A stretch of DNA of 64,000 bases from a phage. Of this stretch, positions 22,715-29,312 are shown one piece after another. A model generated the notes under the pieces. That model had not been told where the DNA came from, searched no databases, and worked only from the letters and a program-made list of their open reading frames with translations. The position numbers and the translations under genes were made by a program. Where the stretch lies: sequence record PZ445431.1. One strand, 5' to 3'. Each line of letters opens with the position of its first letter. Positions within the stretch are counted from its first letter, which is position 1.

Positions 22715-22809
22715 AATTAAAAGATTATTATATTGGTTGGTTTGTAGGACTAATAGTAGGATTTTCACTGGGCTACAACTTGTATCAACTGATAAACTGA
22801 TTACATGGG
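22714..22809 (+). CDS. possible small hydrophobic peptide (31 aa)
   Basis: ATGA-coupled to upstream stop; single predicted TM; overlaps the 5' end of the following tRNA by 3 nt. Confidence 0.25.
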
Positions 22810-22880
22810 GGTGTAATCGAATTGGCATAGGTACTGGACTTAAAATTCAGGTTTTGTGGGTTCGAATCCCACCACCCCTA
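22807..22880 (+). tRNA. tRNA, anticodon UAA by eye (Leu-type anticodon on a short-variable-arm body)
   Basis: Acceptor GGGGGTG/CACCCCT, anticodon arm CTGGA-CTTAAAA-TTCAG, T-arm GTGGG-TTCGAAT-CCCAC, A73, encoded CCA. Confidence 0.55.
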
Positions 22881-22898
22881 CCAAATTAAGGAAATAAA

Positions 22899-26000: not shown

Positions 26001-26010
26001 CCAAACAATT

Positions 26011-26084
26011 GCGGGTTAGATCTTTGGTAGAGATCGCTAGTCTCATAAGCTAGAAAGAGGTAGGTTCGATTCCTGCACCCGCTT
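26011..26084 (+). tRNA. tRNA with CAU anticodon (second copy)
   Basis: Acceptor GCGGGTT/CACCCGC region, anticodon arm CTAGT-CTCATAA-GCTAG, T-arm GTAGG-TTCGATT-CCTGC, encoded CCA. Confidence 0.6.
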
Positions 26085-26108
26085 CCAATTTAATAGAAGG
26101 ATTTCGAA

Positions 26109-27284: not shown

Positions 27285-27615
27285 TATATAAATTGATGCG
27301 AAAATAGCTGCCTAGATACCAGGTGTATGACGTCTACACTAGCAGAGCTACCGAAAAAGAGATCCTCAGGATAAACGTCGTAGCAAAATTAGTCTGGTAT
27401 CCATTAATTTAGTTCACTAAGGTATTAGCTCGACCTAGGACTGGCTGCCAAAAAGCACGATCCCTACGATTTGGGAGAAGTTCTAGATTAGTCCACTAGA
27501 TTCAGCGGCAACTGAATAGTGTATCGGGTTTGTGAAGAGCAGCTATTCTCTACTGGCTAATGTCTGAGGTTAGTACGCACACCGAGCTAATAGCCTTAGT
27601 AAACTTAAAGAATTT
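27285..27615 (+). ncRNA. candidate non-coding RNA (ORF-free segment downstream of consensus promoter)
   Basis: About 330 nt with no ORF >=60 aa after promoter 27253-27281; long-range complement GATACCAG (27308) / CTGGTATC (27394) and hairpin ATTCAG-CGGCAA-CTGAAT. Confidence 0.35.
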
Positions 27616-27688
27616 GGGCGAATAGTGTCAGCGGGAGCACACCAGACTTGCAAGTCTGGTAGGGAGGGTTCGAGTCTCTCTTTGTCCA
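27616..27688 (+). tRNA. tRNA-like gene with non-canonical anticodon loop (6 or 8 nt around TTGCAA)
   Basis: Acceptor GGGCGAA/TTTGTCC (two G-U), D-stem GTGT/ACAC, stem CCAGAC/GTCTGG, T-arm GAGGG-TTCGAGT-CTCTC, encoded CCA. Confidence 0.45.
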
Positions 27689-27706
27689 CCAAATTAAAAA
27701 GAATGC

Positions 27707-27780
27707 GCGCGATTGACGGAATAGGTATACGTGTCAGCCTTAGAAGTTGAATTTTGAGGGTTCGAATCCCTTGTCGCGCA
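27707..27780 (+). tRNA. tRNA, anticodon UAG by eye (Leu-type anticodon on a short-variable-arm body)
   Basis: Perfect acceptor GCGCGAT/GTCGCGC, anticodon arm TCAGC-CTTAGAA-GTTGA, T-arm GAGGG-TTCGAAT-CCCTT, A73, encoded CCA. Confidence 0.55.
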
Positions 27781-27908
27781 CCAAATTTGATGGTCAGAGT
27801 AAATTAAACCTACTATCTCGGTTGAGCTGTTTTAATGGATTCGAATCCCAGCGAGGCGTAACTGCCTGGCGTGATAGAGGCATCATTCCACTAACATTGG
27901 AAAAACTA

Positions 27909-28253: not shown

Positions 28254-28769
28254 ATGCTAACACAACAAGAATTAAAATCCGTGTTGTTATATAAACCAGA
28301 TACTGGAGAGTTTTTCTGGAAATATAGATCTGATTTAGATAGTCAATGGAATAGTAAATATGCTGGAACTAGGGCAGGATTTATTAATGAACTAGGCTAT
28401 TGGAAGATAACTCTAGGAAATACTAGCTGGTTAGCACATCGTCTAGCATTCTTATACATGACTGGGGAAATACCAGATCTAATTGACCACAAGGATCAAG
28501 ATAAGTCCAATACTAAATGGGATAACTTACGAATAGCCACTGTATCACAGAATCAGGCTAATGCTAAATTAAGGGTAGATAATACCTCTGGGTACAAAAA
28601 TGTAACTTGGCATAAGCAAAGAAATAAGTGGAAAGTAGAAGTACGTAAAGATGGCAAACTCCATTATGGTGGACTTTTTACAGAACTAGATAAAGCTGTA
28701 AATAAAGCTAATAATCTTAGACGTGAGTTATTCGGGGAATTTGCAGTATATGAAGAGTTTATGGGGTAG
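28254..28769 (+). CDS. HNH homing endonuclease with AP2-type DNA-binding domain
   Basis: Same architecture as 6957..7472 (ELK..LYKPDTG.F.W, IDHKDQDKSNTKWDNLR, AP2-like SGYKNVTWHK); stop lies inside the next tRNA acceptor stem. Confidence 0.8.
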   Translation: MLTQQELKSVLLYKPDTGEFFWKYRSDLDSQWNSKYAGTRAGFINELGYWKITLGNTSWLAHRLAFLYMTGEIPDLIDHKDQDKSNTKWDNLRIATVSQNQANAKLRVDNTSGYKNVTWHKQRNKWKVEVRKDGKLHYGGLFTELDKAVNKANNLRRELFGEFAVYEEFMG

Positions 28770-28856
28770 GTCAATCCAACGGCTGGCGCTGGACTCCGAC
28801 TTGAAATCGGTTGATCGTAGTGATACGGTGTAAGGGTTCGATCCCCTTACCTACCT
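28765..28856 (+). tRNA. tRNA-Ser (anticodon UGA), type II
   Basis: Perfect acceptor GGTAGGT/ACCTACC, anticodon loop CTTGAAA, long variable arm, T-arm AAGGG-TTCGATC-CCCTT, encoded CCA. Confidence 0.7.
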
Positions 28857-28879
28857 CCAATTAACTATAAGGAATCCTT

Positions 28880-29053
28880 ATGAGCAAAACAGCTACTGTA
28901 ACAATGAAGGATGGTACAAAATTTAAAGCATGTCTTCATGAAACAGATAATGGATGGAAGGCTTATTTGCCACACCTAGATTCCACTGGGTATGGAATGA
29001 CCCAACGTGAAGCTATTGTTGATGCTTTAAATGAGGCTTCCGCTGGTTTATAA
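28880..29053 (+). CDS. hypothetical small protein (57 aa)
   Basis: TAAGGAA RBS then ATG; not in track (<60 aa). Confidence 0.4.
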   Translation: MSKTATVTMKDGTKFKACLHETDNGWKAYLPHLDSTGYGMTQREAIVDALNEASAGL

Positions 29054-29060
29054 AAATTCT

Positions 29061-29191
29061 TGGAATATGCCGGAATTGGTAGACGGGACTGCCGAATAGG
29101 TTTACTAGGAACATCCACTCCTAGAAATATACCTTAAAAGCGGTTGAGTTAAATGGTATAACTCATGAAGGTTCAAGTCCTTCTATTCCTT
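29061..29191 (+). tRNA. tRNA-like element of abnormal length (about 131 nt, or 85 nt from alternative 5' end); possible insertion-containing or degenerate tRNA
   Basis: Leu-like D-arm TGCCGGAATTGGTAGACGGG near 5' end, perfect T-arm GAAGG-TTCAAGT-CCTTC at 3' end, acceptor candidates pair 6/7, no encoded CCA. Confidence 0.3.
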
Positions 29192-29312
29192 GATACATCA
29201 ATGGCTCAAAGTGTAACGGTGCTATTTGATGCTCTTGGCAAGACTTCCCCGACATGCGTTCGGGAGTAAGCTGCTAAGACTAGAGTAGAAGAGTTTCAAC
29301 AAGACAACGATA

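What the first reader, a model, noticed from the sequence alone, without database searches (positions are those of the whole stretch)
29061..29191. Over-length tRNA-like element (about 131 nt) with Leu-like D-arm and perfect T-arm
A tRNA-Leu-like 5' portion (TGCCGGAATTGGTAGACGGG) and a perfect T-arm/acceptor 3' portion are separated by about 45-55 extra nucleotides containing a CTAGG/CCTAG hairpin, and no CCA is encoded. This could be a tRNA with an insertion or small intron, a degenerate tRNA, or a tRNA-derived ncRNA.
Basis: seen in the sequence. Interest (0 to 1): 0.45.

Follow-up and report, generated by a model that had tools for sequence, protein, structure and literature searches.

The report
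Known T5 tRNA-like stable RNA1
This 131-nt element is the copy, in phage TrudiRoth, of phage T5's already annotated 'RNA1': a tRNA-shaped RNA that kept the leucine-tRNA body but carries a long conserved arm where the anticodon should be, so it cannot read codons, and its job is still unknown.

Summary
Window 29061-29191 has a tRNA-Leu-type acceptor stem, D arm, long variable arm and perfect T arm. A 57-nt three-helix arm replaces the 17-nt anticodon arm, and no CCA is encoded. ARAGORN and Rfam call no canonical tRNA there.

The window is the T5-like Escherichia phage TrudiRoth. The element is about 94-95% identical to T5 'rna1' (T5s03), which RefSeq annotates as 'tRNA-like stable RNA with unknown functions'. 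TrudiRoth's own record leaves it unannotated, and one relative mis-calls it a 134-nt tRNA-Leu(taa).

Across 24 distinct homologs, 97.5% of proposed pairs hold, against 44-52% for slid controls. Thirteen pairs show compensatory changes. The apical loop AACATCCACT is unchanged in all but one homolog. No anticodon is conserved under any notional excision.

The evidence therefore supports a selected, non-decoding, tRNA-Leu-derived RNA rather than an intron-containing or decayed tRNA. It is found in 492 phage records, while about 532 carry a close A1 gene. A Vibrio T5-like phage lacks it. T5 RNA2 and T4 rnaC share the same ground plan.

Its function is unknown. My inference is that it is a tRNA mimic excised by tRNA-processing enzymes that presents the conserved loop to a partner.

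The parts
29059..29202 (+). Full span equivalent to T5 misc_RNA rna1 (T5s03, 144 nt)
   Evidence: blastn of T5 RNA1 onto the window: 1-144 aligns to 29059-29202 at 94.4% identity. T5 annotation.
29061..29191 (+). tRNA-shaped body, tRNA positions 1-73 (T1.T72 mismatch, T73, no CCA)
   Evidence: Sequence. Model R1 scores 158.4 bits over 29060-29194. CCA is absent here but present in all 22 canonical tRNAs of the window.
29062..29067 (+). Acceptor stem, 5' strand (GGAATA), pairs with 29184-29189
   Evidence: Six pairs, four with compensatory changes, 98.6% of cells paired.
29070..29086 (+). D arm of tRNA-Leu type (CCG / GAATTGGTAGA / CGG), preceded by U8 and G9 at 29068-29069
   Evidence: Nearly invariant in 26 homologs. 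In three genomes the best non-self hits of model R1 are tRNA-Leu genes.
29088..29144 (+). 57-nt three-helix arm replacing the anticodon arm. Outer helix 29088-92/29140-44, middle helix 29098-101/29131-34, inner helix 29105-09/29120-24, separated by internal loops.
   Evidence: Eight pairs in this arm have compensatory changes: 3 outer, 2 middle, 3 inner. RNAalifold recovers the same helices independently.
29110..29119 (+). Apical loop AACATCCACT, unchanged in all but one homolog
   Evidence: Invariant in the homologs, except one A>G in one T5 record. This holds also for homologs found with patterns that did not specify the loop.
29146..29164 (+). Long variable arm (GAGTTA / AATGGTA / TAACTC), class II tRNA type
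   Evidence: Six pairs, 100% paired, one pair with compensatory changes (AU, UA, CG). The loop is nearly invariant.
29167..29183 (+). T arm GAAGG-TTCAAGT-CCTTC
   Evidence: Five pairs, 100% paired. T54, T55, C56 and A58 are invariant.
29184..29189 (+). Acceptor stem, 3' strand (TATTCC)
   Evidence: Pairs with 29062-29067.
29190..29202 (+). T72, T73 and the conserved 3' trailer TTGATA..., running up to the 5' end of the RNAI homolog
   Evidence: CTTGAT is conserved in all non-Klebsiella homologs. RNAI starts at 29203.
29203..29297 (+). Adjacent homolog of T5 stable RNA 'RNAI', truncated at its 3' end (context, not part of RNA1)
   Evidence: T5 RNAI positions 1-95 of 107 align at 90.5%. The 3' strand GAGAGCC plus GCCA seen in T5 is missing.

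Best explanation
The element is the TrudiRoth ortholog of phage T5 'RNA1', a stable tRNA-shaped non-coding RNA derived from a leucine tRNA gene.

**Shown by the data**
- It keeps a complete class II tRNA core: acceptor stem, Leu-type D arm, long variable arm, T arm, and the nucleotides that make the L-shape.
- The anticodon arm is replaced by a 57-nt arm of three helices. Selection maintains this arm, and it ends in a 10-nt loop (AACAUCCACU) unchanged in all but one homolog.
- It has no conserved anticodon and no encoded CCA.

**Inferred**
- It is co-transcribed with the neighbouring early genes and tRNAs.
- RNase P and the 3' tRNA-processing enzymes cut it out, because its acceptor/T-arm/elbow is intact.
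- It accumulates as a roughly 130-145-nt RNA that is not used in decoding.

**Most likely mode of action (inference, not shown)**
- It acts as a tRNA mimic.
- The tRNA-Leu-like core docks onto a factor that recognises tRNA shape.
- The conserved distal loop makes a sequence-specific contact with a host or phage protein or RNA.
- One possibility is a decoy or sequestering agent in the tRNA-centred conflict between T5-like phages and their hosts.
For: **Identity**
- The window is 100% identical to TrudiRoth.
- The element is 94-95% identical over its full length to T5 rna1.
- T5 rna1 is annotated 'tRNA-like stable RNA with unknown functions' in NC_005859.1 and as misc_RNA in AY692264.1.
- Synteny is the same: a T5.063-like ORF upstream and RNAI downstream.

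**Structure under selection**
- Of 36 proposed pairs, 97.5% of cells pair, against 44-52% for slid controls.
- Thirteen pairs have compensatory changes, and 0 of 500 shuffles reach the observed value.
- RNAalifold recovers the same helices except the D stem.

**tRNA core kept**
- U8, A14, G18, G19, T54, T55, C56, A58, G53 and C61 are invariant.

**Leu origin**
- tRNA-Leu genes are the best non-self matches of the model in the window (33.5 and 30.1 bits), in T4 (34.7) and in a Vibrio phage (33.5 and 31.5).

**Non-decoding**
- No anticodon is conserved.
- It is the only tRNA-shaped gene of the cluster without CCA.
- It is sub-threshold for Rfam tRNA.

**Selected element**
- It is found in 492 records, while about 532 carry a close A1 gene.
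- It is kept where its flanking genes differ and where RNAI and RNAIII are not detectable.
- There is one copy per genome.
Against: - No expression or end-mapping data were available here. 'Stable RNA' rests on the T5 record's note, not on data I could read.
- No partner was found. The loop has no complement in the window beyond chance: four sites with one mismatch against about 3.8 expected.
- The decoy or mimic role is inference only.
- The Klebsiella-phage versions have a weaker acceptor stem, with a G.G mismatch.
- Sequence diversity is limited to about five clades, so several compensatory changes may be single events inherited by many sequences.
Confidence: 0.6

Rival explanations
1. An interrupted tRNA-Leu(UAA) gene. 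About 40 nt (roughly 29093-29132) are removed from the transcript and the halves are joined, giving a normal class II tRNA-Leu with stem ACUGC/GCGGU and loop CUUAAAA.
For: - In the T5/TrudiRoth clade such an excision gives a textbook anticodon stem-loop with U33 and anticodon UAA.
- The annotators of phage JLBYU40 called it a 134-nt tRNA-Leu(taa).
Against: - The anticodon is not conserved. Other clades give AAA/ATA, AAA or AAC/GAC, or no U33.
- The supposed intron carries the near-invariant loop and eight compensated pairs.
- It is too short for a group I intron, and no intron family matches.
- The bulges do not form a 3-4-3 bulge-helix-bulge (sequence).
- No splicing endonuclease is known in E. 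coli or T5 (general knowledge).
- The window already has a canonical tRNA-Leu(taa) with CCA and A73 at 22807-22883.
- This element has T73 and no CCA.
Confidence: 0.04
2. A decaying tRNA-Leu pseudogene disrupted by an insertion and carried along passively in the tRNA cluster.
For: - ARAGORN and Rfam do not call it.
- It has no CCA, a 1:72 mismatch and no anticodon.
- The TrudiRoth record leaves it unannotated.
Against: - Thirteen pairs have compensatory changes and 97.5% of cells pair.
- Tertiary-contact bases are invariant, as is the 10-nt loop apart from one substitution.
- It is retained in 492 records across three Demerecviridae lineages, although tRNA content and neighbours vary.
Confidence: 0.04
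3. A pure processing signal. The tRNA-like fold only recruits RNase P and 3' nucleases to cut the polycistronic early transcript, separating the upstream ORF mRNA from RNAI, RNAIII and the tRNAs. The excised RNA itself has no function.
For: - It sits directly between an ORF (28880-29053) and RNAI (29203 onward), with no local promoter or terminator above chance.
- The acceptor and T arms are intact.
- tRNA-like punctuation of transcripts is a known principle (general knowledge).
Against: - A processing signal needs only the acceptor/T-arm minihelix.
- It does not explain selection on the three helices of the long arm, the conserved apical and variable loops, or the Leu-type D loop.
- Neighbouring tRNAs already supply RNase P sites.
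Confidence: 0.12
4. A base-pairing regulator. The conserved loop AACAUCCACU forms a kissing or antisense contact with a host or phage RNA, and the tRNA body only provides stability and processing.
For: - A 10-nt loop conserved in sequence and displayed on a conserved stem is typical of loop-mediated antisense RNAs (general knowledge).
- The loop is unchanged across clades whose stems have changed.
Against: - There is no complementary site in the 64-kb window beyond chance.
- The host genome and the rest of the phage genome were not searched, and a 10-mer has no discriminating power there.
- It does not explain conservation of the Leu-specific D loop and the variable-arm loop.
Confidence: 0.15

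Closest known systems
Phage T5 RNA1 (rna1, T5s03; NC_005859.1 30501-30644; AY692264.1 30504-30647)
   Same: - It is the ortholog, at 94-95% identity over the full length.
- It has the same position between the T5.063-like ORF and RNAI.
- It has the same secondary structure.
   Different: - Differences are a few substitutions, several of them compensatory: variable-arm T-A against A-T, and acceptor U-A against U-G.
- In TrudiRoth the downstream RNAI is truncated, and RNAIII and tRNA-His are missing.
Phage T5 RNA2 (T5s06, 'tRNA-like stable RNA with unknown functions')
   Same: It has the same ground plan: acceptor stem, D arm, an arm of about 52-55 nt in place of the anticodon arm, a small variable hairpin, and a canonical T arm GGTTCGAATCC (fold). 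It lies in the same tRNA region.
   Different: - It has no detectable sequence homology. Model R1 does not hit it in T5.
- Its arm sequence and apical loop differ.
- It is absent from this window apart from an 18-nt T-arm match.
Phage T4 rnaC ('species 1 RNA', 139 nt) and rnaD
   Same: - They are small stable RNAs encoded inside a phage tRNA cluster, and their roles are still unknown (PMC3014915).
- rnaC folds into a terminal stem, a ~60-nt long arm, a second hairpin and a canonical T arm CCGGG-UUCGAAU-CCCGG, with no CCA in its annotated span.
   Different: - It is not detectably homologous (9.4 bits).
- rnaC has no D arm.
- It belongs to a different phage family (Straboviridae).
- rnaD does not show this plan.
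Class II tRNA-Leu (Rfam RF00005 tRNA)
   Same: It shares the acceptor stem, a 3-bp D stem with loop GAAUYGGUAGA, a long variable arm, the T arm and the tertiary-contact nucleotides. tRNA-Leu genes are the best non-self hits of its model.
   Different: - It has no 7-nt anticodon loop and no conserved anticodon.
- It has a 57-nt arm instead of 17 nt.
- It has T73 instead of the A73 seen in both tRNA-Leu genes of the window.
- It has a T1.T72 mismatch and no CCA.
- It scores below the Rfam gathering score.
tmRNA and bacterial Y-RNA-like YrlA (tRNA mimics with a long helix in place of the anticodon arm)
   Same: They show the same general idea: a tRNA-like module joined to a long helical extension (general knowledge).
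   Different: - ARAGORN finds no tmRNA.
- No tmRNA or YrlA family matches at E<=10.
- There is no tag reading frame.
- The 5' and 3' ends here form the acceptor stem, unlike YrlA.

Membership tests
T5 RNA1 (tRNA-like stable RNA of Demerecviridae) | Full-length sequence homology to T5 rna1 | tested here: met
   94.4% identity over 144/144 nt; 95.2% over the 146-nt query.
T5 RNA1 (tRNA-like stable RNA of Demerecviridae) | Same genomic position: after the T5.063-like small ORF and immediately before RNAI, in the early tRNA region | tested here: met
   The ORF at 28880-29053 lies upstream and the RNAI homolog starts at 29203.
T5 RNA1 (tRNA-like stable RNA of Demerecviridae) | Shared secondary structure with the long arm and conserved apical loop | tested here: met
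   158.4 bits against model R1; pair counts.
T5 RNA1 (tRNA-like stable RNA of Demerecviridae) | Accumulates as a stable RNA in infected cells | not testable with these tools
I found no readable paper or expression data.
Canonical tRNA (Rfam RF00005) | Scores at or above the family's gathering score over the whole model | tested here: not met
   There is no hit at gathering score. The best is 23.9 bits against 29, using only 29123-29191 with the D and anticodon arms deleted. ARAGORN makes no call.
Canonical tRNA (Rfam RF00005) | 5-bp anticodon stem closing a 7-nt loop with U33 and an anticodon conserved among orthologs | tested here: not met
   The stem closes a 47-48-nt insert. No excision gives a conserved triplet.
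Canonical tRNA (Rfam RF00005) | Acceptor, D and T arms with the L-shape tertiary nucleotides | tested here: met
   the U8, A14, G18, G19, T54, T55, C56 and A58 columns are invariant, and the stems are 98.6-100% paired.
Canonical tRNA (Rfam RF00005) | 3' CCA (encoded by every tRNA gene of this cluster) | tested here: not met
   22 of 22 tRNAs end in CCA. This element continues TTGATA. Post-transcriptional addition was not testable.
Intron-containing tRNA (bacterial group I intron in the anticodon loop; archaeal bulge-helix-bulge intron) | A group I intron core (about 200 nt or more, matching Rfam Intron_gpI) or a 3-nt/4-bp/3-nt bulge-helix-bulge at the exon-intron junctions | tested here: not met
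   The insert is 40-48 nt. No intron family matches at E<=10. The 4-bp middle helix is flanked by a 5x5-6 internal loop and by a 3-nt/6-nt loop, not by two 3-nt bulges.
Intron-containing tRNA (bacterial group I intron in the anticodon loop; archaeal bulge-helix-bulge intron) | Exons that join to a functional anticodon loop conserved among orthologs | tested here: not met
   TAA appears only in one clade.
tmRNA | A tRNA-Ala-like domain plus a tag-peptide reading frame and pseudoknots | tested here: not met
   ARAGORN reports no tmRNA. There is no Rfam tmRNA hit.
T4 rnaC (species 1 RNA) | Sequence or structure homology to T4 rnaC | tested here: not met
   Model R1 gives 9.4 bits on rnaC. The resemblance is limited to the ground plan.

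The most novel reading that the evidence does not exclude
T5 RNA1, T5 RNA2, T4 rnaC, and elements such as the one on metagenome contig L106 may form a recurrent and so far unrecognised functional class. These would be 'long-arm tRNA mimics' that phages build from tRNA genes and place in their tRNA arrays. Each would act as a decoy or inhibitor of a host factor that recognises tRNA shape, for example a tRNA-cleaving immune nuclease or a synthetase. The conserved distal loop would supply the specificity.
Probability: 0.2. Interest if true: 0.7.

Novelty: already known. Interest (0 to 1): 0.35.

Why it matters
The finding rediscovers from raw sequence an RNA that T5 researchers named long ago but never explained.

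- **Annotation gap.** Current practice handles it inconsistently: absent in TrudiRoth, 'hypothetical protein' in some relatives, and 'tRNA-Leu(taa)' in another.
- **Evidence for function.** The comparative analysis shows strong structural selection, a 10-nt loop conserved in sequence, and loss of every decoding feature. That argues the RNA is functional, and the loop gives a precise handle for mutagenesis.
- **Why it is worth testing.** T5-type tRNA clusters are now known to counter tRNA-targeting host defences such as PARIS and Retron-Eco7/Septu, as the literature retrieved describes. A conserved non-decoding tRNA mimic in that cluster is a reasonable candidate for a role in the same conflict. 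The same may apply to T4's equally unexplained rnaC.

Tried and rejected
**Canonical tRNA with a misplaced 5' end.** Rejected. ARAGORN and Rfam find none, and the only partial alignment is sub-threshold.

**Spliced tRNA-Leu(UAA).** Rejected on comparative grounds and on the lack of any intron signature.

**Protein-coding reading.** Only ORFs of 20-51 aa overlap the element. The upstream 57-aa ORF has no Pfam match. My impression that it resembles HicB was therefore not confirmed.

**Own promoter or terminator.** Consensus matches are at chance level. The single 'terminator' is the T arm itself.

**Paralogs in the window.** None were found. The next-best model hits are ordinary tRNA-Leu genes.

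**Target of the loop within the window.** Only chance-level matches were found.

**Wider distribution.**
- A loose D-arm-plus-loop pattern in viral contigs gave 84 loci, but the model confirmed only the T5-like ones.
- A Vibrio T5-like phage has no homolog.

**Literature.** Seven searches found no open-access paper describing RNA1. The original Ksenzenko-group papers on T5 stable RNAs, which I recall from memory, are not in the library.

**Intramolecular loop-loop pairing.** Pairing between the apical loop and the variable loop gives only CCA/UGG (3 bp), and both loops are invariant. It is therefore untestable and was dropped.

Full report
**1. Observation**

- Positions 29061-29191 map exactly onto tRNA positions 1-73.
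- T1 faces T72 at 29190, and the acceptor stem is GGAATA (29062-67) with TATTCC (29184-89).
- U8 and G9 lie at 29068-69.
- The D arm at 29070-86 is a 3-bp stem CCG/CGG with loop GAATTGGTAGA. From memory, that loop is the one found in E. coli tRNA-Leu.
- G26 is at 29087.
- A long variable arm GAGTTA/AATGGTA/TAACTC occupies 29146-64.
- The T arm GAAGG-TTCAAGT-CCTTC at 29167-83 is perfect.
- Between G26 and the variable arm lie 57 nt (29088-29144) instead of a 17-nt anticodon arm. They include the CTAGG/CCTAG hairpin (29105-09 and 29120-24).
- After T73 the sequence continues GATA. All 22 canonical tRNA genes of the window end in CCA.

ARAGORN finds 21 tRNAs in the window but nothing here. Rfam at gathering score likewise finds nothing here. 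At E<=10 the only match is a partial tRNA alignment of 29123-29191 at 23.9 bits, below the gathering score of 29, with the D and anticodon arms deleted. The single-sequence fold is a cloverleaf with one long arm (-37.3 kcal/mol, z = -2.4).

**2. What genome, and what is annotated there**

The window is 100% identical to Escherichia phage TrudiRoth (MZ501109.1; Demerecviridae, Epseptimavirus). Its record has no feature between tRNA-Ser(TCA) and tRNA-Thr.

The element alone matches 492 phage records, and 425 of them cover at least 80% of it.

- **T5, both records:** the homologous stretch is a named feature. AY692264.1 lists it as misc_RNA rna1, 144 nt, followed by RNAI, RNAIII and tRNA-His.
- **TrudiRoth:** mapping T5 RNA1 onto the window gives 29059-29202 at 94.4% identity.
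- **Other annotators:** they were inconsistent. JLBYU40 calls it a 134-nt tRNA-Leu(taa). Most records leave it blank, and some overlay a hypothetical protein.
- **ORFs:** no meaningful ORF overlaps it.

**3. Comparative structure**

I collected homologs from several sources:

- viral contigs, with a pattern of D arm, long gap and T loop;
- divergent GenBank phages from Klebsiella, Pectobacterium, Obesumbacterium and others;
- metagenomes.

Twenty-six sequences, 24 of them distinct and falling into about five clades, align with 90% mean column identity.

I tested a 36-pair structure on this alignment.

| Measure | Result |
|---|---|
| Cells forming standard pairs | 97.5% |
| Same, with 3' partners slid by 1-3 columns | 44-52% |
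| Pairs with changes on both sides | 13 |
| Shuffles reaching the observed paired %, both-sides-changed counts or covariation score | 0 of 500 (the 'further pair types' measure did not differ: 214 of 500) |

The 13 compensated pairs are distributed as 4 in the acceptor stem, 3 in the outer helix, 2 in the middle helix, 3 in the inner helix and 1 in the variable arm. The D and T stems never lose pairing. RNAalifold, run independently, recovers the same helices except that it mis-pairs the D region.

The nucleotides that build the tRNA L-shape are invariant: U8, A14, G18, G19, G53, T54, T55, C56, A58 and C61.

The apical loop AACATCCACT (29110-19) is identical in every homolog except one T5 record, which has a single A>G. 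This includes homologs retrieved with patterns that did not specify the loop.

**4. Is it an interrupted tRNA?**

For each clade I enumerated every way of deleting one block between the outer-stem strands so as to leave a 7-nt loop.

- The T5/TrudiRoth clade gives CTTAAAA (anticodon TAA), which explains the JLBYU40 annotation.
- The other clades give AAA/ATA, AAA or AAC/GAC, or they lack U33.

An anticodon that is not conserved, flanking an 'insert' that is the most constrained part of the molecule, is the opposite of what an intron predicts. Four further points count against splicing.

- The insert is far too short for a group I intron.
- No intron family matches.
- The internal loops are not a 3-4-3 bulge-helix-bulge.
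- The window already has canonical tRNA-Leu(taa) and tRNA-Leu(tag) genes with A73 and CCA.

I conclude that the element does not decode.

**5. Origin and distribution**

A covariance model built from the alignment finds exactly one full-length copy per T5-like genome, at 136-167 bits. Its best other hits are always tRNA-Leu genes:

- in the window, 33.5 and 30.1 bits;
- in T4, 34.7 bits;
- in Vibrio phage JSF10, 33.5 and 31.5 bits.

The body is therefore derived from tRNA-Leu, and there is no long-arm paralog in the window.

About 532 phage records carry an A1 protein at least 60% identical to the window's, while 492 carry RNA1. RNA1 thus appears close to a core element of the enterobacterial T5-like phages (Markadamsvirinae, Hongcheonvirus, Sugarlandvirus); I did not cross-match the two record sets, and some records are fragments. 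The tRNA region of a Vibrio T5-like phage lacks it.

Neighbours vary. Upstream lies a small ORF, a tRNA-Ser or an 'endolysin'. RNAI and RNAIII are undetectable downstream in several clades. RNA1 persists in all of these settings.

**6. Closest known things**

- **T5 RNA1.** This element is its ortholog, so the object is already known.
- **T5 RNA2.** It is also annotated 'tRNA-like stable RNA with unknown functions' and has the same ground plan: acceptor stem, D arm, an arm of about 52-55 nt, a small hairpin and a T arm. It is not detectably homologous and is absent from the window.
- **T4 rnaC.** This is the 'species 1 RNA' of 139 nt in the T4 tRNA cluster. It folds into a terminal stem, a ~60-nt arm, a 10-bp hairpin and a canonical T arm, but scores only 9.4 bits with my model. 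The roles of T4 RNAC and RNAD are still described as unknown (PMC3014915; PMC9697503).
- **Rejected families.** tmRNA, YrlA and intron families do not match.

**7. How it most likely works**

*Shown:* a tRNA core under purifying selection, a long arm maintained by compensation, apical and variable-arm loops conserved in sequence, no anticodon and no CCA.

*Inferred from established knowledge of tRNA processing:*

- There is no promoter or terminator above chance nearby, and RNAI abuts the 3' trailer. The element is therefore probably transcribed within the early polycistronic tRNA transcript.
- RNase P would release it at its 5' end.
- Its 3' end would be formed by RNase P cleavage at RNAI or by 3' trimming.
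- With T73, a T1.T72 mismatch and no CCA, it is unlikely to be leucylated. Both tRNA-Leu genes of the window have A73. From memory, A73 is a major LeuRS determinant.

*Best guess, about even odds for the general form:* it acts as a tRNA mimic. The Leu-like core docks onto something that recognises tRNA shape, and the distal loop gives specificity.

*A specific anti-defence decoy role is plausible but untested.* T5-type tRNA clusters counter tRNA-cleaving defences (papers retrieved). I give this roughly 0.2.

*Rivals:* a pure processing signal (0.12), a loop-mediated antisense regulator (0.15), a spliced tRNA (0.04) and a pseudogene (0.04).

**8. Verdict**

'Intron' and 'degenerate tRNA' are not supported.
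- The element is already known as T5 RNA1, so novelty is low.
- Its function has remained unknown since it was named. The covariation and the conserved loop documented here make it a well-defined target for experiment.
- Interest is 0.35.

Noticed in passing
window 29203-29297: This is a homolog of the T5 stable RNA 'RNAI', but only positions 1-95 of 107 are present. The 3' strand of its terminal stem and the encoded CCA (T5: ...TGAGAGCCGCCA) are replaced by sequence leading into tRNA-Thr. RNAIII and tRNA-His, which follow in most relatives, are missing. TrudiRoth is the only locus of about 45 examined with this truncation.
   Followed up: partly
window 27423-27535: A partial homolog (113 of 172 nt, 98% identity) of the T5 stable RNA 'RNA2H' lies in the unannotated gap before tRNA-Ala.
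   Followed up: no
window 28765-28859: The record's tRNA-Ser(TCA) is missed by ARAGORN and by Rfam tRNA at gathering score. It matches only the tRNA-Sec model, sub-threshold (38.3 bits against 47), because of its long acceptor and D-stem geometry. Its anticodon loop reads CTTGAAA (TGA).
   Followed up: no
window 22807-22883 and 27707-27783: Both tRNA-Leu genes (taa and tag) are only 77 nt long with a short variable loop, so they look like class I tRNAs. T5's tRNA-Leu(UAG) is annotated at 85 nt. Leu tRNAs without the long variable arm are unusual for bacteria and their phages.
   Followed up: no
window 27616-27691: ARAGORN reports 'tRNA-???' with a 4-base anticodon (tgca). The record calls it tRNA-Ala(GCA codon). 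The anticodon arm ACCAGACTTGCAAGTCTGGT can be drawn with a 6-nt or an 8-nt loop rather than 7 nt.
   Followed up: no
window 26010-26087: The phage initiator tRNA-fMet starts with T1 and ends ...CGC-T-T-CCA. It therefore has a T1.T72 mismatch and T73, the same end configuration as the RNA1 element (T1.T72, T73).
   Followed up: no
window 28880-29053: A 57-aa ORF (MSKTATVTMKDG...), homologous in position to T5.063/T5p061, is not annotated in the TrudiRoth record. It has no Pfam match at E<=0.1.
   Followed up: partly
L106:52-196 (metagenome contig Ga0315277_10672458, 1002 nt): Another over-length (~145-nt) tRNA-shaped element sits at the head of a dense array of 7 tRNA genes on an unrelated contig. 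It has the identical Leu-type D arm and a T arm ATGGG-TTCGAAT-CCTAT, but lacks the AACATCCACT loop. Model R1 gives it 38 bits, the same level as ordinary tRNA-Leu.
   Followed up: partly
L108:3960-4084 (T5 NC_005859.1 32959-33083, minus strand): T5 RNA2 folds with the same plan as RNA1: an 8-bp acceptor stem, a D arm, a ~55-nt arm whose tip is a T-loop-like hairpin CTCG-TTCGATT-CGAG, and a T arm. It has no homolog in this window.
   Followed up: partly
loci L002-L108, RNAIII homologs: T5 RNAIII is 96-100% identical across clades in which RNA1 is only 80-87% identical. It is thus far more conserved than its neighbours, and it is absent from TrudiRoth.
   Followed up: no
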